From IMG/VR virus record IMGVR_UViG_3300028549_001457, positions 64,001-128,000 of that record: a stretch of DNA of 64,000 nt, one strand, 5' to 3'. Every line of letters begins with the position of its first letter. Within the stretch, counting starts at the first letter, position 1. Shown here piece after piece: positions 42,952 through 51,002 of this stretch. The notes under the pieces were generated by a model. It was not told where the DNA came from, ran no database searches, and saw only the letters and a list, made by a program, of their open reading frames with translations. The position numbers were made by a program, and so were the translations under genes. Source of the stretch: a virus (Duplodnaviria; Caudoviricetes).

Positions 42952-43341
42952 ATGTATAGCATGGATAAGACCCCCTACGGTTTTTCTATTGTTTTAGCAG
43001 GCAGTTTATCCAAGGAAGACCTTGATGCATGGCTGTCAGAGGTGCTTATGCTAATACCATCCTCCCCCATAGGTGTTAAACTCTTAATTGATGCTACTGA
43101 GTTGAAGCTCATACCTAGAGGGTCAAAACGTGGTTATGAAGAAATACTTCGCTATTTTATTGATAATGGCTTGCAAAGATCCTGTGTGCTTTACTCAACA
43201 GCATCTGTTAGGCTTCAACTGGCTAATATATCCTCCACTATTGGGTTCACGGGTGAGCGCTATCTAAATACCTCTAAGGTAGCCTCCTATAAGCGTTTGT
43301 CGCGTGAGTGGCTTGTTTTTGGCAAAGAACCAAACTTATAA
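42952..43341 (+). CDS. STAS/SpoIIAA-like (STAS-SEC14) small protein
   Basis: 129 aa with beta-alpha pattern FSIVLAG.L...D...W...V...KLLIDATEL...GLQRSCVL...ERYL, which I recognise from bacterial STAS/SEC14-like proteins. Confidence 0.55.
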   Translation: MYSMDKTPYGFSIVLAGSLSKEDLDAWLSEVLMLIPSSPIGVKLLIDATELKLIPRGSKRGYEEILRYFIDNGLQRSCVLYSTASVRLQLANISSTIGFTGERYLNTSKVASYKRLSREWLVFGKEPNL

Positions 43342-44860: not shown

Positions 44861-44892
44861 GAACAGGGGCAGAAGGCCCCTGTTCCCTTTTT
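44861..44892 (+). terminator. Putative rho-independent terminator
   Basis: GAACAGGGGC-AGAAG-GCCCCTGTTC, then CCTTTTT. Confidence 0.65.
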
Positions 44893-44906: not shown

Positions 44907-45401
44907 ATGTGTAGCCTAGAAGAACATATCTACCAAGAACTTAGGGATTCTGTTAAAACAGGGGATCTTTTAGTTTGGGAGGGGACTTCCCTCTTTGCTA
45001 GATTGGTTAGTCTTTTTACTAAATCTAGTTACACCCACGTTGGTCTTGCCTGGGTAGTTGGGGGAAGGGTTCTTATCCTCCAGGCTAACCCTGGAGTCGG
45101 GGTTGAGGTTGCAACTCTTAGTGATAATCTGCCTGTTGTTATATTTAAGAGTCCAACTCCCCTATCTGCAAAAGCTTTAAAGGTAGCTTTAGATCAGCTC
45201 CAGGAGCCCTATTCGTTTATGAACGCCATTCGAGCTGGCTTTGGTCTACGAGTTTCTAATAGAGGCTTCCAGTGTGTCCAGTATGTCCTGAGAGTTTTCA
45301 AAGCTAATAAGCTTAAAATTGATTTGTCCTCCCACACTCCCAAGCAGCTCGTTGAGTTCTTCGAGACCACTCTGCACGTTCAAGGTTTAAAAGTATCTTA
45401 G
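44907..45401 (+). CDS. Permuted papain-like amidase (NlpC/P60, YiiX/YebB-like)
   Basis: KTGDLLVW...SSYTHVGLA (His first) ... FQCVQYV (Cys last), the circularly permuted order. Confidence 0.8.
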   Translation: MCSLEEHIYQELRDSVKTGDLLVWEGTSLFARLVSLFTKSSYTHVGLAWVVGGRVLILQANPGVGVEVATLSDNLPVVIFKSPTPLSAKALKVALDQLQEPYSFMNAIRAGFGLRVSNRGFQCVQYVLRVFKANKLKIDLSSHTPKQLVEFFETTLHVQGLKVS

Positions 45402-45452
45402 ATATTGAATAACATTCAAGCGTATCTTAGGAGGTAGCTCTTTAGAGGTAGC

Positions 45453-46004
45453 TTGATGCTCAGCCCTTCACGAAAAAACCCCCCTGCCCTGGATAAATCC
45501 CCACGGCTTAGGTTTACTTCTAGGTATCCCTTTACCACTTCCTCAGACTTACTGGGAGAGGTTAAGCACCTGGAGAATGAGTTTTTTACACAACCCTGGA
45601 TGGGCGCTAAATTCATTTTAGTGGAAAGCTCTAGGTCCTTTATGTATGTCTTTGAGACTCAGCAAACTCGAGTTTCCGGGCCTGAGGATCTTCAAAGTAT
45701 CGCAGCTATGTACCGAGAGCTTGAAAACAAGTTTAATACAACTATTGCATCTTGCATTATTAATGTGAACGCCATTCCAAAAATGCCCGGTAATGTCGGG
45801 TATATTTTTGGCTATCAAGCTTTATACACCCTAACTCGGCAGGGGAGTTTGTGTGATATTTCTAAGGTATCCTATGATGACTCAAATGGAGCGCCTGAAA
45901 TTATTGAGAGCGAGAGTTCTGCTATGAAAACGGCATGGGAAGAGCGTATAGGTGAGCCTCTTGAGCATTTTATAAAGAGGCTTTTTGTGCCTATTGTAGT
46001 GTGA
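45453..46004 (+). CDS. Hypothetical protein
   Basis: 183-aa ORF with GAGG RBS. No recognised motif. Confidence 0.55.
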   Translation: MMLSPSRKNPPALDKSPRLRFTSRYPFTTSSDLLGEVKHLENEFFTQPWMGAKFILVESSRSFMYVFETQQTRVSGPEDLQSIAAMYRELENKFNTTIASCIINVNAIPKMPGNVGYIFGYQALYTLTRQGSLCDISKVSYDDSNGAPEIIESESSAMKTAWEERIGEPLEHFIKRLFVPIVV

Positions 46005-46041
46005 AGGTGCCTTTCTCTTTTAAAGAGAGGTCAATCAACGA

Positions 46042-46413
46042 ATGAAGAAAATCCTATTGGTAGAAGACAACGTAATGAATCAGGAAGGATTCTTCAGGCT
46101 TTTATCTAAGCGTGGGTATACAGTTGTTGTAGCTACTAGTGGGGAATCTGCAATAACTAAATACAATGAGGATATGCCAGATCTCATTCTCATGGATGTG
46201 AGTCTCCCTGATATGTCCGGTTTTGATGTTACTAGGGTCATACGTTCTCTAGAAGCTAGCGCTTCTAGACCAGCTACCCCTATTATTGCAATTACTGCTC
46301 ATGCAATGGTGCAAGACCGTGTGCATGCAATCGAGGCTGGGTGTACTGACTTTGAGCCAAAACCCATGGAGTTCAAAAGATTATTCCAAAAAATAGCAAA
46401 ATATACCTCCTAA
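46042..46413 (+). CDS. Single-domain response regulator (CheY/DivK-like receiver)
   Basis: LLVEDN, DLILMD52VSLPDMSG, IAITAHA, KP. The acidic pocket, phospho-Asp (codon 46195), Thr and Lys are all present. Confidence 0.92.
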   Translation: MKKILLVEDNVMNQEGFFRLLSKRGYTVVVATSGESAITKYNEDMPDLILMDVSLPDMSGFDVTRVIRSLEASASRPATPIIAITAHAMVQDRVHAIEAGCTDFEPKPMEFKRLFQKIAKYTS

Positions 46414-46458
46414 GTGTATTTCAGATATCGGGGCATCGTATCTTGTTAGGAGGTTTTT

Positions 46459-46914
46459 ATGCTTGAGCGTATCCTGGCGAGGTTGATTAAACCTGGGCAC
46501 CCCAGAGACCTACTTTCGATGATGAAGGTGTGTTCTTCTTTGATGGGTCCCGTGATTGGTTTTTGTATGTGTGTGGCTTATGTAGCTTTGACACGAAATC
46601 TATGGGCATACGTTCCAATGGTGCTTCTAGGTGGTCTGGTTTTAGGTGGGTCACTTGCCCTGAAGCATGAAATTAGGCTACGAAAATCCTACCGATCTGG
46701 CAGAGTAGCACTTCCTCCGCTTCTTGCTGAAGGCGTTGACGCCGCAGAACGTGGTGATGCTGAAAGACTCTATGCTTGTATCCAGGCTAGGGTGGACATT
46801 GTGGCTCTGGATGCACACAGTTTGGCGATATTTGACTGCCTTTTACGTGATACCCTTCATGTGTCCCCTGAACTTAAGGCTGATCTCCTAGCCATTCAGC
46901 AGCGCTCAACCTAG
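46459..46914 (+). CDS. Membrane protein with two predicted TM helices
   Basis: Hydrophobic segments LMGPVIGFCMCVAYVAL and LWAYVPMVLLGGLVLGGSLAL. AGGAGG RBS. Confidence 0.65.
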   Translation: MLERILARLIKPGHPRDLLSMMKVCSSLMGPVIGFCMCVAYVALTRNLWAYVPMVLLGGLVLGGSLALKHEIRLRKSYRSGRVALPPLLAEGVDAAERGDAERLYACIQARVDIVALDAHSLAIFDCLLRDTLHVSPELKADLLAIQQRST

Positions 46915-46941
46915 AACTTCTCTTGAATAGAGGAGGGTTCT

Positions 46942-47625
46942 GTGGCAGATGTCCTAAGTTTAGTTACAAAGTACTGCCCTAATGCTATGACCTTAATAAA
47001 GGACCCGTCTAAAGTTGTCTCAACTTTGACTAAGATAGGTCCCTCTATTCAAACAGCTTTGAGATTAGATCCAAAGTCTGTTCAGGGAACCTCCAATACG
47101 ATTATCACTAAGGCGGCTGCTGTTGCAGCCAGATCTCAGGATACGGCTGCAAAGGCCATTAAGACTGCCACGCAGGATGTTCAAGAGAGGGCCTTGAAAG
47201 TAGCTAAAGATAAAGCTGATGCTATTAAAAAACAAGCTTTAAACGCAGCATCTACCTCCCTAGCTAAAAATGCAGCACCCCTAATGCAGCAGTATTCTGT
47301 TGCAATGGGGTCTGTAAACTCGCTTAAACAATCAGCTTCCGCTATTGTGGAAGCTACAAGTAGCGTGTTTACAGCTCAGAAACTACTTAAACAGATTAAT
47401 TTTAAACAAGCTAACGCATCCCGAGTTAAGGTCCCATCTGGGGAGACTACTTCTATCCAGGGTAAAATTACTGCGATAAAAGATTTAGCGGAATCACAGA
47501 AGGCTACTTTAGACAAGCTTAAACTTCTAAAAAAAGATGCGGATGTAGCGTCTGAAGCCCTTAAGTCTGCTAAGGAAGCTCTAGAAAAAGCCCAAAAATC
47601 CTCAGCATTAATAAACAAGCAATAA
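46942..47625 (+). CDS. Lys/Ala-rich coiled-coil protein
   Basis: GAGGAGG RBS. Long helical K/A/Q-rich stretches. Confidence 0.6.
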   Translation: MADVLSLVTKYCPNAMTLIKDPSKVVSTLTKIGPSIQTALRLDPKSVQGTSNTIITKAAAVAARSQDTAAKAIKTATQDVQERALKVAKDKADAIKKQALNAASTSLAKNAAPLMQQYSVAMGSVNSLKQSASAIVEATSSVFTAQKLLKQINFKQANASRVKVPSGETTSIQGKITAIKDLAESQKATLDKLKLLKKDADVASEALKSAKEALEKAQKSSALINKQ

Positions 47626-47652
47626 ATTTGTGGGACTTGAAATCGTCTTTTT

Positions 47653-49566
47653 GTGAAGAACTTTCAAAGGGGTTCTGTTTTTACGATGGATTCCACATTT
47701 AAAAAATACATGCATATAGACGGGGGCACTCTTAGGATGTCTCTGACAAGCCTTTCTTTGGTGTTGTCTACCCCTCTTGGCGTGGTGGTTATTATTCTTA
47801 GTTATCTCGTTTTTGGGTTAACTCATTGGTTTGTTGGTGTCCTATTAGCTCTGGCCCTTTTTACGCTATTCATGCTAAGAGTTGTGCATGTCCATTTCAG
47901 CAACCCCCTTCTGCGATTTTCTCAAGGTATCCGTGAGTTGGATTCTCAAACCCCTCTAGAGGGGACTTCCTGCCTGGAGTTATCCAAGGTTAATGATTCT
48001 TTCTCTGCCCTAACAACCTCTCTCTATGATAAAGATATACGGGTTTCTAGGACTTTGAATACCCTCGAAGATTTAGTAGCAGAGAGAACGCTTGAGTTGT
48101 TAAAAACAAATACTGAATTGCTACTTGCTAATGAGTTAGCAGAATCCGCTGCACATGCTAAATCGGTTTTTCTCACTCATATGAGTACCTCCCTACGAAC
48201 TCCTCTTAATGGTATCCAAATTTATGCTGAGTTGCTAACAGACGCTCTTCAGGAGCTTCCAGTCTCATCTGATGCCCTTGATGATGTAAAACGAATTCAA
48301 AAATCTGCCGATCAGCTTTTGGAGACTATTGATCGAATACTAGACTATGCTCAAGTTGAAATTGGGCATATTAACATTGAGTCAGATACTATCCTTTTGA
48401 TAGACTTTATTAAAGAATGCGAATCTTTAAGTAGGTCTATGGCTAAAAAAGGTAATAACTGGTTCGACTTAATGTTGTCTCCAAACCTTCCAACATATAT
48501 CTCCACGGACCATAAGAAGCTTAAGCATGTCTTAATATCCTTATTAGATAATGCTAATAAATTTACTCACAAGGGGCATGTCAGACTTCATATAGATGAT
48601 GATGGGGATTTTTTAGTATTTACCATCTCAGATACTGGTGTTGGAATACCCCCAGAAGATCTTAAGAGTATGTTTGTTGAGTTTATTTCCAGCAACAAAA
48701 AGGGTGTGACCTCCCTGGGACTTGGATTAACGCTTACAAAAAAATACTTGGATTTGCTGGGAGGAACCATCTCAGTTAGATCTACCCTAAAACATGGAAC
48801 TGTTTTTACGGTAAAGATACCCAAGCTAGCTAAATATTTGGTTAGAAAGAATTCCTCCACGGTTCTAATTATGCTCCCAGACACCCCTGTGCGTAATGAG
48901 TTGATATCTAAGTTAACTCAGCTAGGGTTATGGACCACTGTAGTGGAGACCTTAGATGAATGTATTAAAATATCAACCTCCTTAGGGCCTCAGACCATTA
49001 TATTGGGTATTACCCGCCCTGAAGATTGGGATACGCTACTGCAACTAGGGAATTCTCTTCCTCAGCGGTGTAGGGTTCTCTGCATACAGTTTGCTGAGGA
49101 TTCAATGGAGGGGTCCATTGTAGAGGTGCGTGAGATTGTTAAAAAGCCCATTAAAAGGGATCATTTAGCGTATGTTCTTAATAGCTACGCGGCTCCCAGA
49201 AAGTCCCCCAGGGTCCTAATAATTGAAGATGATAGAGTTACTGCGTTAGCCCTATCTAGGCAAGTTGAATCGCTTGGTTGGAAAACAACTGTTGTTTTTT
49301 CAGCAGAGGCTGCGCTTCCTCACTTAGAAGTCCCCACCATAGATTTGCTTCCCTCTTTGGTGCTCCTTGATTTAGGGCTACCTGGGATGGGTGGGGCGGA
49401 ATTACTTGAGACACACTCACATATTTTTAGGGACCTACCTGTCGTGGTGGTTACTGGATCTTCCGTGTCAGGGGGTGATTTAGCTAGGATAAATATGTTC
49501 GATACTAAGGTTCCCATATCGGAAATAGCTGTGGGTGTTGCTGCTAAAGTTAGTAGATGGTCCTAG
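47653..49566 (+). CDS. Hybrid sensor histidine kinase homolog lacking the phospho-His (TM-TM-HAMP-HisKA*-HATPase-REC*-REC)
   Basis: H-box AKSVFLTHMSTSLRTPLNG, N-box LLDNANKFT, G1 DTGVGI, G2 LGLGL, GTVF. REC1 has Gly at the Asp site. REC2 has EDD...LLD..LPG...VVT..K. Confidence 0.85.
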   Translation: MKNFQRGSVFTMDSTFKKYMHIDGGTLRMSLTSLSLVLSTPLGVVVIILSYLVFGLTHWFVGVLLALALFTLFMLRVVHVHFSNPLLRFSQGIRELDSQTPLEGTSCLELSKVNDSFSALTTSLYDKDIRVSRTLNTLEDLVAERTLELLKTNTELLLANELAESAAHAKSVFLTHMSTSLRTPLNGIQIYAELLTDALQELPVSSDALDDVKRIQKSADQLLETIDRILDYAQVEIGHINIESDTILLIDFIKECESLSRSMAKKGNNWFDLMLSPNLPTYISTDHKKLKHVLISLLDNANKFTHKGHVRLHIDDDGDFLVFTISDTGVGIPPEDLKSMFVEFISSNKKGVTSLGLGLTLTKKYLDLLGGTISVRSTLKHGTVFTVKIPKLAKYLVRKNSSTVLIMLPDTPVRNELISKLTQLGLWTTVVETLDECIKISTSLGPQTIILGITRPEDWDTLLQLGNSLPQRCRVLCIQFAEDSMEGSIVEVREIVKKPIKRDHLAYVLNSYAAPRKSPRVLIIEDDRVTALALSRQVESLGWKTTVVFSAEAALPHLEVPTIDLLPSLVLLDLGLPGMGGAELLETHSHIFRDLPVVVVTGSSVSGGDLARINMFDTKVPISEIAVGVAAKVSRWS

Positions 49567-49628
49567 CCCATCATTTCCCCCTGTATTACTACTGGGTGGG
49601 CTAGCTCAAGTTCAGTCCGCTGGCATGG

Positions 49629-50189
49629 GTGCATATGAGTCTACCTTTAGAGATCCTTCTCGGGCATGTGCCCGTCTTCACGTTTGAAGATCAGACTTGT
49701 GGGCTCTGCCTCTTAGCCTCTCAGCTACGGGACTCCTTTTTTGAGCTACAACGCGAAGAGGCTGGCCCTAGCCTAGCTATTGTGACAAAAAATTGCTCTC
49801 CCGCACGTATTATATCTGAGTGTATCCCTGAGTTGCCAGTTGAAGGTCTTGGGGATTCAGAGAATTATGTGGTCACTATTTTGGCGAGTGCTGCTTTTAC
49901 TGGGTATGTTCAGAGAACCCTCTTTGAAATCTGGGCTCGGATAGAGGTAGGGAAAGAAGTTCCAGATCTCATTGGAGGAATCCTGACGATAGAGGGGGTT
50001 TATAAAGGATCTAAAAAGGCACTCTACCAAGTGATTAAGCTGGAAAATGGGTGGGCTCAATATCGTGTGCATCCATTTTCAAGGGATGATTCTGGGGTGG
50101 CGTCTTTGGTTGGGACCCCAATTGTTGAGGGGACTGAAGATGGTCCCCTTGACTTTACAGCATTTCTTGAAAATAATATAAATGGCTGA
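49629..50189 (+). CDS. Hypothetical protein
   Basis: 186-aa ORF, no recognised motif. Confidence 0.55.
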   Translation: MHMSLPLEILLGHVPVFTFEDQTCGLCLLASQLRDSFFELQREEAGPSLAIVTKNCSPARIISECIPELPVEGLGDSENYVVTILASAAFTGYVQRTLFEIWARIEVGKEVPDLIGGILTIEGVYKGSKKALYQVIKLENGWAQYRVHPFSRDDSGVASLVGTPIVEGTEDGPLDFTAFLENNING

Positions 50190-50402: not shown

Positions 50403-51002
50403 GTGCTATCTGTCCTTGAATCTACTGGTGTGAATACTTCCACGGCAACTTTATCCGTAGATATTCAAGAATTAACCGGAACTAAAAATGGGCACTCCGT
50501 TTCGTTTCTCCCCAGATCCTCTTTCCAAACTCAGGGACTTGGGGTCCCCGTTGCAACTGTTGAGCCCGTTGCAACTGCTAACCCAGTAGCCCCTGAGCCA
50601 ACTCCCCTGAAGAAGCTCCCTAATAGGCGAGGTGGGTTCAACCAAGTTTTAAAGATGTCCGATGGGATGAAACTCTATCTTAGAACCGGGGAATTCGCAG
50701 ATGGCTCCCTTGGTGAAATCTTCGTAGATACCCAAAAAGAGGGAACCTTTGCTAGGTCAATGTTAAACTGTTTTGCCGTTGCGATTTCTACGGGACTCCA
50801 GCATGGTGTTCCTCTGAGTGTTTTTGTGGACCAGTTTAAGACTGTTATGTTTGAGCCGAAAGGCCCCGTTAGCGGTTCAGATGTTGTTTTTGAGGCTACG
50901 TCCATTATTGATGCCCTTTTTAAGGAATTAGATGCCGCCTACCCTGACGGGGTGGCCCCCATTCCGGCTCCCGTTCGGTCCCCAGTCAAGCAGAATATGT
51001 GA
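50403..51002 (+). CDS. Stand-alone TSCPD-domain protein (class II ribonucleotide reductase C-terminal domain homolog)
   Basis: KLPNRRGG...KLYLRTGEF.DG.LGEIFVD..KEG...AVAIS.GLQHGVPL..FVDQF....FEP.G.V...ATSIIDALFKEL. TAGGAG RBS. Confidence 0.8.
   Translation: MLSVLESTGVNTSTATLSVDIQELTGTKNGHSVSFLPRSSFQTQGLGVPVATVEPVATANPVAPEPTPLKKLPNRRGGFNQVLKMSDGMKLYLRTGEFADGSLGEIFVDTQKEGTFARSMLNCFAVAISTGLQHGVPLSVFVDQFKTVMFEPKGPVSGSDVVFEATSIIDALFKELDAAYPDGVAPIPAPVRSPVKQNM

What the first reader, a model, noticed from the sequence alone, without database searches (positions are those of the whole stretch)
47653..49566. Phage-encoded hybrid histidine pseudokinase: phospho-His lost, sensor deleted, ATP site and one receiver kept
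Seen: the H-box reads FLTHMSTSLRTPLNG (codons ACC TCC at 48187-48192), against the canonical FLANMSHELRTPLN, so both the phosphoacceptor His and the adjacent acidic residue are replaced. A His sits 3 residues upstream (48178). N, G1 and G2 boxes remain, with a shortened ATP lid. The two TM helices have almost no loop, so there is no extracytoplasmic sensor. REC1 has Gly at the Asp position (49006), while REC2 keeps its Asp (49369), Thr and Lys. Known: His-less kinase homologs such as Caulobacter DivL act as allosteric partners of phosphorylated receivers. Inference: the phage kept an intact 637-aa ORF while removing autokinase chemistry. It may act as a decoy, phosphate sink, phosphatase or dominant-negative heterodimer partner that rewires host two-component signalling.
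Basis: partly seen in the sequence, partly recalled or inferred. Interest (0 to 1): 0.85.

Follow-up and report, generated by a model that had tools for sequence, protein, structure and literature searches.

The report
Jumbo-phage histidine pseudokinase family
A 279-kb phage from microbial mats carries a membrane sensor-kinase look-alike that cannot phosphorylate its usual histidine. Related phages have kept the same disabled gene next to a small receiver protein, so it is a working signalling part and not a broken gene, probably a phosphatase or docking partner.

Summary
ORF 47653-49566 (637 aa) is TM hairpin-HAMP-DHp-CA-pseudoREC-REC. Its H-box has Thr-Ser where 305 of 307 homolog H-boxes have His.

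It is not a sequencing error: six assemblies are nucleotide-identical. It is not decay either. Four orthologs (33-43% identity), three of them in contigs with the same neighbouring genes as here, all lack the His (T/S/S/A/S) and the adjacent Glu. They form one clade with 100% support, and the His-less DHp is their best-conserved domain.

- The His 3 residues upstream is not a shifted acceptor. It is N or Q in two orthologs, and "FLSHMSHE" is common in ordinary kinases.
- The ATP site is only partly kept. The first N-box Asn, the F-box Gln and the lid Arg/Gly-Gly are lost in the whole family.
- The REC2 Lys is not conserved.
- The missing sensor is a trait of the whole family; no deletion event is shown.

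The kinase-only residues (His, Glu) are gone, while the phosphatase Thr (H+4) is invariant. A catalytically complete single-domain receiver is co-conserved three genes upstream. The same phage also encodes an intact YfiR-CHASE8 kinase with its own receiver.

Most likely the protein is a kinase-dead transmitter that docks or dephosphorylates receivers (PleC/DivL/RetS-like). This is a new, phage-borne variant of a known kind. This scan has already noted several bacterial histidine pseudokinases on other DNA.

The parts
47653..49566 (+). 637-aa hybrid histidine-kinase homolog (pseudokinase), whole ORF. The start could instead be ATG 47686.
   Evidence: same protein on six assemblies
47737..47901 (+). 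Two transmembrane helices (residues about 29-83) joined by a turn of about 3 residues; no periplasmic domain.
   Evidence: Hydropathy; orthologs also have two TM segments with 3-11 residue loops
47902..48132 (+). HAMP-like linker and signalling helix (residues 84-160).
   Evidence: AF2 helix-connector-helix at 84-97/98-107/108 onward; ortholog P0122 scores Pfam HAMP at 42 bits
48133..48372 (+). DHp (HisKA) domain without a phospho-acceptor. H-box at 48169-48216, with T179/S180 in place of His/Glu. R182-T183-P184 are kept.
   Evidence: best-conserved domain of the family, 46-64% identity
48373..48837 (+). CA (HATPase_c) domain. The Mg-binding N-box Asn (N300), K303 and the G1 box are intact. 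The first N-box Asn, the F-box, the ATP lid and the Gly-Gly before G2 are degenerate.
   Evidence: lid pLDDT 60-72
48850..49197 (+). REC1 pseudo-receiver (residues 400-515). The acidic pair, the phospho-Asp (G452) and the Thr are lost; the Lys-Pro is kept.
   Evidence: no Pfam hit; weak VpsR-type hit in P0122
49204..49563 (+). REC2 receiver (residues 518-637) with E525/D526, D573 and T601. The C-terminal alpha4-beta5-alpha5 region is divergent.
46042..46413 (+). Single-domain receiver (123 aa) with all catalytic residues. It is co-conserved three genes upstream of the pseudokinase in related phages.
46459..46914 (+). 151-aa membrane protein of unknown function, part of the conserved gene block.
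   Evidence: homolog in L015
46942..47625 (+). 227-aa helical Ala/Lys-rich protein of unknown function, part of the conserved block.
49629..50189 (+). 186-aa protein of unknown function, conserved directly downstream.
44861..44885 (+). Terminator-like hairpin that may mark the upstream edge of the 44907-50189 gene block.
   Evidence: consensus scan only

Best explanation
The gene encodes a histidine pseudokinase that selection has maintained in one lineage of jumbo phages.

Shown:
- An ancestor of the HK-REC-REC type lost the phospho-acceptor His, the catalytic Glu next to it, parts of the ATP lid, and the active site of the first receiver. These losses happened once, at the base of the family.
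- The membrane anchor, HAMP, DHp, the core of the CA fold and (in most lineages) the second receiver were kept.

Inferred:
- The protein no longer autophosphorylates. It works through its DHp surface as a kinase-off, phosphatase/docking transmitter.
- It binds receiver domains, first of all the co-conserved phage single-domain receiver at 46042. It either strips that receiver's phosphoryl group using the retained Thr183 (H+4), or reads its phosphorylation state as DivL does.
- This activity is set by the TM-HAMP input.
- The phosphate would come from the phage's own intact YfiR/CHASE8 kinase or from host kinases.
- REC2 (D573) is an accessory acceptor or sink, as in RetS, and one lineage has dispensed with it.
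For: - Not an error: there are 0 nucleotide differences over up to 21 kb in six assemblies.
- Family: P0122, P0123, P0124/P0290 and L015 have S/S/A/S at the His site and S/M/S/S at the Glu site.
- The five members form one clade (SH-aLRT 100) on a stem of 1.33 substitutions per site, with about 4.9 substitutions per site inside the clade and open frames in all four sequenced full-length; L015 is open to its contig end.
- Shared gene order: REC-x-x-pseudokinase-x-(x)-TSCPD occurs in three phage contigs, with homology confirmed for L027.
- DHp is the most conserved domain, at 46-64% identity.
- R182-T183-P184 are invariant in all 59 aligned sequences.
- In HisKA kinases, Glu at H+1 is needed only for kinase activity and Thr/Asn at H+4 only for phosphatase activity. 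CrdS H371A keeps most of its phosphatase activity (PMC3510030).
- The upstream receiver ortholog is 52% identical, with E-D, D52, T85 and K-P all intact.
- The phage has a canonical second kinase (SHELRTPL, all boxes present) with YfiR, CHASE8 and its own receiver.
- The P0124/P0290 lineage has lost the REC2 Asp yet keeps the gene in the same neighbourhood, which places the core function in HAMP-DHp-CA.
- By fold, the model matches full-length ShkA, GacS, HK853, RetS and DivL.
Against: - No biochemistry exists, and the host is unknown.
- Thr183 is invariant in active kinases too, so its retention does not single out phosphatase activity.
- In some kinases (PleC H610A) loss of the His abolishes phosphatase activity as well.
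- Co-location with the receiver is shown in only three related genomes. It could reflect conserved phage gene order and not function.
- The family is small (five sequences). dN/dS could not be measured: dS is saturated between orthologs, and the one close pair differs at only 4 nucleotides.
- The strong conservation of REC2 in three members (56-59%) suggests REC2 phosphorylation matters more than this model assumes.
Confidence: 0.5

Rival explanations
1. RetS-like antagonist of a real kinase. The pseudokinase sits in the membrane beside a host kinase of the GacS/BarA/HK-REC-REC type, or beside the phage's own CHASE8 kinase. It disrupts that kinase's DHp dimer and siphons phosphate from its His onto REC2 D573. 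This partly overlaps with the best explanation.
For: - The architecture matches RetS: DHp, degenerate CA, non-functional REC1 and functional REC2. RetS cannot bind ATP. It takes phosphate on its REC2 and also acts as a transmitter phosphatase (PMC5992135, PMC8498467).
- The best PDB sequence match is GacS at 3e-30, with RetS at 2e-20.
- The RetS kinase region matches the model at TM 0.80.
- REC2 is 56-59% conserved in three members.
- Membrane anchoring is retained.
Against: - One lineage (P0124/P0290) has lost the REC2 Asp yet keeps the gene.
- RetS keeps its HExxT motif; this family does not.
- No partner kinase has been identified, and heteromer formation is untestable here.
- Sequence similarity to GacS is generic for this H-box subtype.
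Confidence: 0.22
2. It is still a kinase with a different acceptor. One version has His176 (3 residues upstream) taking the phosphate. The other has the hydroxyl residue at the old His site (T179), or a separate protein such as the SpoIIAA-like ORF at 42952, phosphorylated as by GHKL-type Ser kinases.
For: - H176 is present in 3 of 5 members.
- The old His site carries T/S/S/S in 4 of 5 members.
- The adenine-binding residues N300 and D327xGxG are invariant.
- ORF 42952-43341 has a SpoIIAA-like fold (Atlas TM 0.95).
Against: - The -3 position is N in L015 and Q in P0124.
- 'FLSHMSHE' or 'FLSQMSHE', meaning H or Q at -3 together with the normal His, occurs in all 46 bacterial loci in which an H-box was read, out of 49 retrieved. 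H176 is therefore inherited background.
- The catalytic Glu and much of the ATP lid are gone.
- P0124 has Ala at the old His site.
- The SpoIIAA-like gene is 4.3 kb away and is absent from the corresponding position in the P0123 contig.
- A phospho-Ser or phospho-Thr could not feed REC2.
Confidence: 0.08
3. Neutral decay or an assembly/sequencing artefact: a recently captured host kinase that is falling apart.
For: - The gene's GC content is 41.6% against 45.5% for the genome.
- The family sits on long branches.
- REC1 and the lid are degenerate.
Against: - The sequence is identical in six assemblies from several studies.
- Frames of 569-641 codons stay open in four full-length lineages that have diverged to 33-43% identity, and the partial L015 frame is open to its contig end.
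- The genes lie in the same neighbourhood.
- DHp is highly conserved.
- 94 columns are invariant across four members.
Confidence: 0.03

Closest known systems
RetS of Pseudomonas aeruginosa (hybrid sensor without autokinase activity)
   Same: The order DHp, degenerate CA, REC1 not used, REC2 with a working Asp. No autophosphorylation. RetS acts on another signalling protein by phosphatase activity, phosphate siphoning and DHp binding (PMC5992135, PMC8498467). The RetS kinase region matches the model at TM 0.80.
   Different: RetS keeps its His and the HExxT motif and has lost the G-boxes. Here the His and Glu are lost, G1 is intact and G2 is partly kept. RetS has a large periplasmic 7TMR-DISMED2 sensor; here there is only a TM hairpin plus HAMP. 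RetS is chromosomal; this gene is phage-borne. Whether this protein is an evolutionary relative of RetS specifically was not shown.
DivL of Caulobacter crescentus, with DivK
   Same: A HisKA/HATPase_c protein without the phospho-His (Tyr in DivL), maintained by selection, working with a single-domain receiver that it binds instead of phosphorylating (PMC4211667). A single-domain receiver is co-conserved here. PDB 4q20 matches at 2.6e-17.
   Different: DivL has PAS domains and no receiver domains. Here there are HAMP and two C-terminal receiver-type domains. Binding of the receiver is untested.
PleC-type or 'K- P+' HisKA phosphatases (CrdS and HK853 mutant analysis)
   Same: The residue pattern fits: the kinase-only Glu is lost, and the phosphatase-only Thr at H+4 and the flanking Pro are kept (PMC3510030).
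   Different: Natural bifunctional kinases keep the His. PleC H610A loses phosphatase activity. No activity has been measured here.
ShkA of Caulobacter (DHp-CA-REC1 pseudo-receiver-REC2)
   Same: Same four-domain cytoplasmic architecture. It is the top Foldseek hit over 492 columns (6qrj).
   Different: ShkA is a soluble, active kinase with a His, switched on by c-di-GMP binding to REC1. No c-di-GMP site was examined here.
Bacterial HK-REC-REC hybrid kinases (e.g. P0128 and 53 others in alignment A3)
   Same: They are the closest sequence relatives (26-32% identity) with the same domain order. They are the likely ancestral type.
   Different: All have His-Glu, full N/F/G2 boxes and a canonical first receiver.

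Membership tests
Catalytically active HisKA-family histidine kinase | Phospho-acceptor His in the H-box of DHp helix 1 | tested here: not met
   T179 in this protein and S/S/A/S in the orthologs. His is present in 305 of 307 H-boxes of other homologs.
Catalytically active HisKA-family histidine kinase | Acidic residue at H+1 (needed for autophosphorylation) | tested here: not met
   S180 here; S/M/S/S in the orthologs. The role of this residue is from PMC3510030.
Catalytically active HisKA-family histidine kinase | Complete N, G1, F and G2 boxes and an ATP lid in the CA domain | tested here: inconclusive
   N300, K303 and D327xGxG are invariant. The first N-box Asn, the F-box Gln, the lid Arg and the Gly-Gly are lost in the whole family. 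The third G2 Gly is kept only in this protein. Nucleotide binding itself cannot be tested here.
HisKA/HATPase_c fold (homology to histidine kinases) | Significant profile matches and a DHp hairpin plus alpha/beta sandwich fold | tested here: met
   Pfam 49 and 84 bits, above the cut-offs. AF2 pLDDT is 85. Foldseek matches GacS, HK853 and RetS.
Histidine pseudokinase (DivL-like class, defined by function) | HK fold lacking the acceptor His, yet conserved under selection | tested here: met
   A monophyletic His-less family. Frames are intact at 33-43% identity, and DHp is the most conserved domain.
Histidine pseudokinase (DivL-like class, defined by function) | Binds a (phosphorylated) single-domain receiver and signals without phosphotransfer | not testable with these tools
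   Only co-location is shown: a catalytically complete 122-126 aa receiver lies three genes upstream in three phage contigs.
RetS-type hybrid sensor | DHp, degenerate CA, REC1 and REC2, with only REC2 competent | tested here: met
RetS-type hybrid sensor | Retained HExxT motif and a 7TMR-DISMED2 periplasmic sensor | tested here: not met
   H and E are absent and only the T is kept. The N-terminus is a TM hairpin with a turn of about 3 residues.
Receiver domain (REC2) | Acidic pair, phospho-Asp, Thr/Ser and Lys of the active site | tested here: inconclusive
   E525/D526, D573 and T601 are present in P0001, P0122 and P0123. The Lys is not conserved and the K-P motif is absent. The site is degenerate in P0124.
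Receiver domain (REC1) | Phospho-Asp and acidic pocket | tested here: not met
   G452 sits at the Asp site and L/P at the acidic pair, with equivalent losses in all orthologs. The fold is retained. REC1 is therefore a pseudo-receiver.

The most novel reading that the evidence does not exclude
This phage lineage runs its own self-contained two-component decision circuit. An intact envelope-sensing kinase (YfiR/CHASE8) charges CheY-like phage receivers. The membrane pseudokinase acts as the opposing PleC/DivL-type arm. Together they gate a phage developmental choice, such as lysis timing, superinfection response or the GIY-YIG-REC nuclease, according to the state of the host envelope. That would be a virus-encoded kinase/pseudokinase pair, not a single hijacking factor.
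Probability: 0.2. Interest if true: 0.85.

Novelty: new variant of a known kind. Interest (0 to 1): 0.58.

Why it matters
Histidine pseudokinases are known in bacteria (DivL, RetS and others), and this scan has noted several more. I found no report of a pseudokinase family that is maintained in phages and embedded in a phage-encoded two-component toolkit. That toolkit comprises an intact sensor kinase, two CheY-like receivers and a receiver-nuclease fusion.

If the inferred role holds, it shows that large phages do more than perturb host signalling. They carry both the 'on' and 'off' arms of a phosphorylation switch of their own.

The family is also a natural experiment for separating kinase from phosphatase/docking functions of the HisKA fold. 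The kinase-only residues are removed and the phosphatase residue is kept.

The limits are serious: the phage is uncultured, the host is unknown, there are only five sequences, and there is no biochemistry.

Tried and rejected
- tblastn against GenBank phages gave only generic kinase-core hits below 36% identity.
- The word-index protein search with the single protein found nothing above 34% identity over most of the protein. Repeating it with the family alignment was swamped by generic kinases and did not even recover the family. Only the exhaustive HMMER search found the orthologs.
- IMG/VR scans with the protein, the family alignment, the TSCPD neighbour and the receiver found no family member. 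They returned one unrelated canonical phage hybrid kinase, L014.
- The scan of 185,579 species' genomes for the His-less H-box pattern returned only canonical SHE/SHD kinases. No cellular or prophage member was found, within the limits of the pattern.
- dN/dS between orthologs was not attempted because dS is saturated at 33-43% identity. The one close pair (L013 and L027) differs at 4 nucleotides (2 synonymous, 2 non-synonymous), which is uninformative.
- There was no variation among the six assemblies of this phage.
- Expression: no RNA holder was listed.
- The DNA of the P0122 and P0123 contigs was not available.
- Pfam gave nothing for the 151-aa, 227-aa and 186-aa neighbours, the proposed sigma-like ORFs, or the 42952 ORF. 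Atlas look-ups of the 151-aa and 227-aa proteins gave only weak leads.
- No Hpt domain was found in the phage.
- Model coordinates are not exposed, so the position of H176 relative to the ATP pocket could not be measured.
- Literature searches found no paper on phage-encoded histidine pseudokinases. That is an absence in this library only.
Full report
**1. What is there**

The window is part of a 278,785-bp IMG/VR virus record that CheckV rates 95% complete. Nearly all long ORFs lie on the + strand. They include baseplate hub and wedge proteins, tail fibres, DnaB-like and other helicases and a family-A DNA polymerase. The context is therefore a jumbo tailed phage. The runs that hold it are microbial-mat metagenomes.

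ORF 47653-49566 encodes 637 aa. Pfam finds HisKA at 170-236, HATPase_c at 286-391 and Response_reg at 521-604.

**2. Anatomy**

- Hydropathy shows one hydrophobic run at about residues 29-83. That is two TM helices with a turn of about 3 residues.
- An AF2 model built on a 59-sequence alignment has mean pLDDT 85. It shows, in order:
  - a HAMP-like helix-connector-helix;
  - a long signalling helix running into DHp helix 1, followed by DHp helix 2;
  - a CA alpha/beta domain whose lid (340-355) is poorly defined;
  - two consecutive (beta-alpha)5 domains at 403-511 and 520-636.
- Ortholog P0122 scores Pfam HAMP at 42 bits.
- Foldseek's best hit is full-length ShkA (DHp-CA-REC1-REC2) over 492 columns. 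GacS, HK853, RetS (TM 0.80 by target) and DivL follow.

**3. The H-box**

The H-box reads FLTHMSTSLRTPLNGI. Of 307 H-boxes in the other homologs fetched, 305 have His at the acceptor site, and none has Thr-Ser.

**4. Not an error**

The same protein is called on JGI, Logan and ENA contigs. Five fetched loci have 0 mismatches to the window over 3.5-21 kb.

**5. A family**

The word-index search saw nothing closer than 34% identity over most of the protein. The exhaustive HMMER search of 1.84 billion representatives found more:
- P0122: 641 aa, 43% identity.
- P0123: 634 aa, 41% identity.
- P0124: 569 aa, 39% identity.
- A JGI contig adds a partial member, L015.
- P0124 has a near-identical copy, P0290, on a 22-kb contig, L027.

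The H-boxes of the relatives are FLSHMSSSLRTP, FLSHMSSMLRTP, FLSQMSASFRTP and FLTNMSSSLRTP. The His and the Glu are absent in all of them.

On a DHp-CA tree with 54 bacterial relatives, the five form one clade with SH-aLRT 100. The stem is 1.33 substitutions per site, with about 4.9 more inside the clade. The simplest reading is one loss followed by long retention.

The gene neighbourhood is shared. The P0123 contig and L027 both carry receiver(122-126 aa)-x-x-pseudokinase-x-(x)-TSCPD, as the window does. L013 and L015 share the immediate neighbours.

Frames of 569-641 codons that stay open at this divergence rule out neutral decay.

Within the family, identity by domain is as follows:

| Domain | Pairwise identity |
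|---|---|
| DHp | 46-64% (highest) |
| REC2 | 56-59% in three members; 20-25% with P0124 |
| CA | about 40% |
| REC1 | about 30% |
| TM | about 20% |

**6. What was lost and what was kept**

This compares the family with 54 bacterial HK-REC-REC relatives.

Lost in the whole family:
- the His and the Glu;
- the first N-box Asn;
- the F-box Gln;
- the lid Arg;
- the Gly-Gly before G2;
- the REC1 acidic pair, Asp and Thr.

The third G2 Gly is Ser in the four orthologs and is kept only in this protein.

Kept:
- N300, K303, D327xGxG and G356;
- R182-T183-P184, invariant in all 59 sequences;
- the REC2 residues E/D-D, D573 and T601 in three members.

The REC2 Lys is not conserved. P0124/P0290 has lost the REC2 Asp altogether.

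So 'ATP site kept' is only partly right, and 'one receiver kept' holds for most lineages but not all.

**7. The upstream His**

H176 is H/H/H/Q/N across the family. The genome-wide pattern scan returned 49 bacterial kinase loci. An H-box could be read in 46 of them, and in all 46 FLSHMSHE or FLSQMSHE carries H or Q at -3 together with the normal His. H176 is therefore inherited background of an H-box subtype, not a relocated acceptor.

The same scan found no His-less member in 185,579 species' genomes, within the limits of the pattern.

**8. The rest of the phage's signalling kit**

- A canonical kinase of 493 aa with CHASE8, SHELRTPL and all boxes. It is preceded by a YfiR-like gene and followed by a 120-aa receiver.
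  - It is 36% identical to the pseudokinase core.
  - Its position on the tree is unresolved.
  - Its receiver is 43% identical to the 46042 receiver.
- A GIY-YIG-receiver fusion.
- A 60-aa DHp-like peptide, below the Pfam cut-off.
- No Hpt domain.

The 46042 receiver has every catalytic residue, and its L027 ortholog is 52% identical. Genes 44907-50189 are tightly spaced. A terminator-like hairpin lies upstream and a promoter-like site near the end, from a consensus scan only.

**9. Mechanism**

Established knowledge:
- In HisKA kinases, Glu at H+1 is required only for kinase activity and Thr/Asn at H+4 only for phosphatase activity.
- CrdS H371A still shortens the CrdA~P half-life from 53.5 to 2.6 min, although PleC H610A loses both activities (PMC3510030).
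- RetS has the same DHp-CA-REC-REC order and cannot bind ATP. It acts by phosphatase activity, by siphoning phosphate onto REC2, and by DHp binding (PMC5992135, PMC8498467).
- DivL binds DivK~P (PMC4211667).

The family's residue pattern has the kinase residues removed and the phosphatase residue kept. DHp is its most constrained domain. A complete receiver is co-conserved with it. One lineage lacks any phosphorylatable site.

Together these favour a kinase-dead transmitter that docks and probably dephosphorylates receivers under HAMP control, with REC2 as an accessory sink. This is inference; no step has been assayed. The RetS-like antagonist reading overlaps with it and cannot be separated here.

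**10. Alternatives weighed**

Alternative-acceptor kinase models (H176, T179, or a STAS-type substrate) are weak.
- The 42952 ORF does have a SpoIIAA-like fold.
- It is not part of the conserved block, however.
- P0124 has Ala at the old His site.
- The lid is degenerate.

**11. Novelty**

Histidine pseudokinases are a known kind, and this scan has already noted several bacterial ones on other DNA. Phage kinase homologs also exist in PHROGs without an assigned function, and canonical ones occur in IMG/VR (L014).

I found no paper on a phage pseudokinase family in the library searched. This is therefore a new, phage-borne variant of a known kind. It is of moderate to good interest, limited by an uncultured phage, an unknown host and only five sequences.

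Noticed in passing
L008:2-2194 (G000 about 205.9-208.1 kb, outside the window): A complete second signalling module in the same phage. It has a YfiR/DUF4154-like gene, a 493-aa CHASE8 histidine kinase with a canonical SHELRTPL H-box and full N/G1/F/G2 boxes, and an overlapping 120-aa single-domain receiver.
   Followed up: partly
L005:1249-1857 (G000 about 274.2-274.8 kb): A 202-aa protein that fuses a GIY-YIG nuclease domain (58 bits) to a receiver domain (61 bits). It is a possible phosphorylation-gated nuclease.
   Followed up: partly
L025:1486-1668 (G000 about 213.3 kb): A 60-aa ORF with an HDLRNALT motif that matches HisKA at 22 bits, below the cut-off. It may be a stand-alone DHp-like peptide, and it sits just before a 342-aa ORF.
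   Followed up: partly
window 42952-43341 (+): A 129-aa ORF with no Pfam hit. The Atlas model matches SpoIIAA-like/STAS-fold clusters at TM 0.95 and feature score 0.94. It is not found at the equivalent place in the P0123 contig.
   Followed up: partly
window 44907-45401 (+): A 164-aa ORF with a sub-threshold match to the permuted papain-like amidase family C92 (E 1e-4). It is 60% identical to its L027 counterpart, making it one of the best-conserved genes of the block that holds the receiver and the pseudokinase.
   Followed up: no
window 50403-51002 (+): A 199-aa protein with a TSCPD domain (the domain otherwise seen at the end of class II ribonucleotide reductases). It is conserved downstream of the pseudokinase in all three phage contigs that share this gene order (64% identity to L027).
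   Followed up: no
L014:9782-11260 (IMGVR_UViG_3300012950_000003): An unrelated viral contig that encodes a 492-aa hybrid kinase with a canonical SHEIRTP H-box. A long Gln-Ala repeat links its CA domain to a canonical receiver.
   Followed up: no
P0123 contig (ENA ERZ1426824, no DNA available): Three radical-SAM genes lie a few kb upstream of the receiver-pseudokinase block in this related phage, where the window has other genes.
   Followed up: no
window 37653-59024 and loci L001, L002, L010-L012: There are zero nucleotide differences over up to 21 kb between assemblies from several microbial-mat studies (2020-2023). The phage population appears clonal across those samples.
   Followed up: partly
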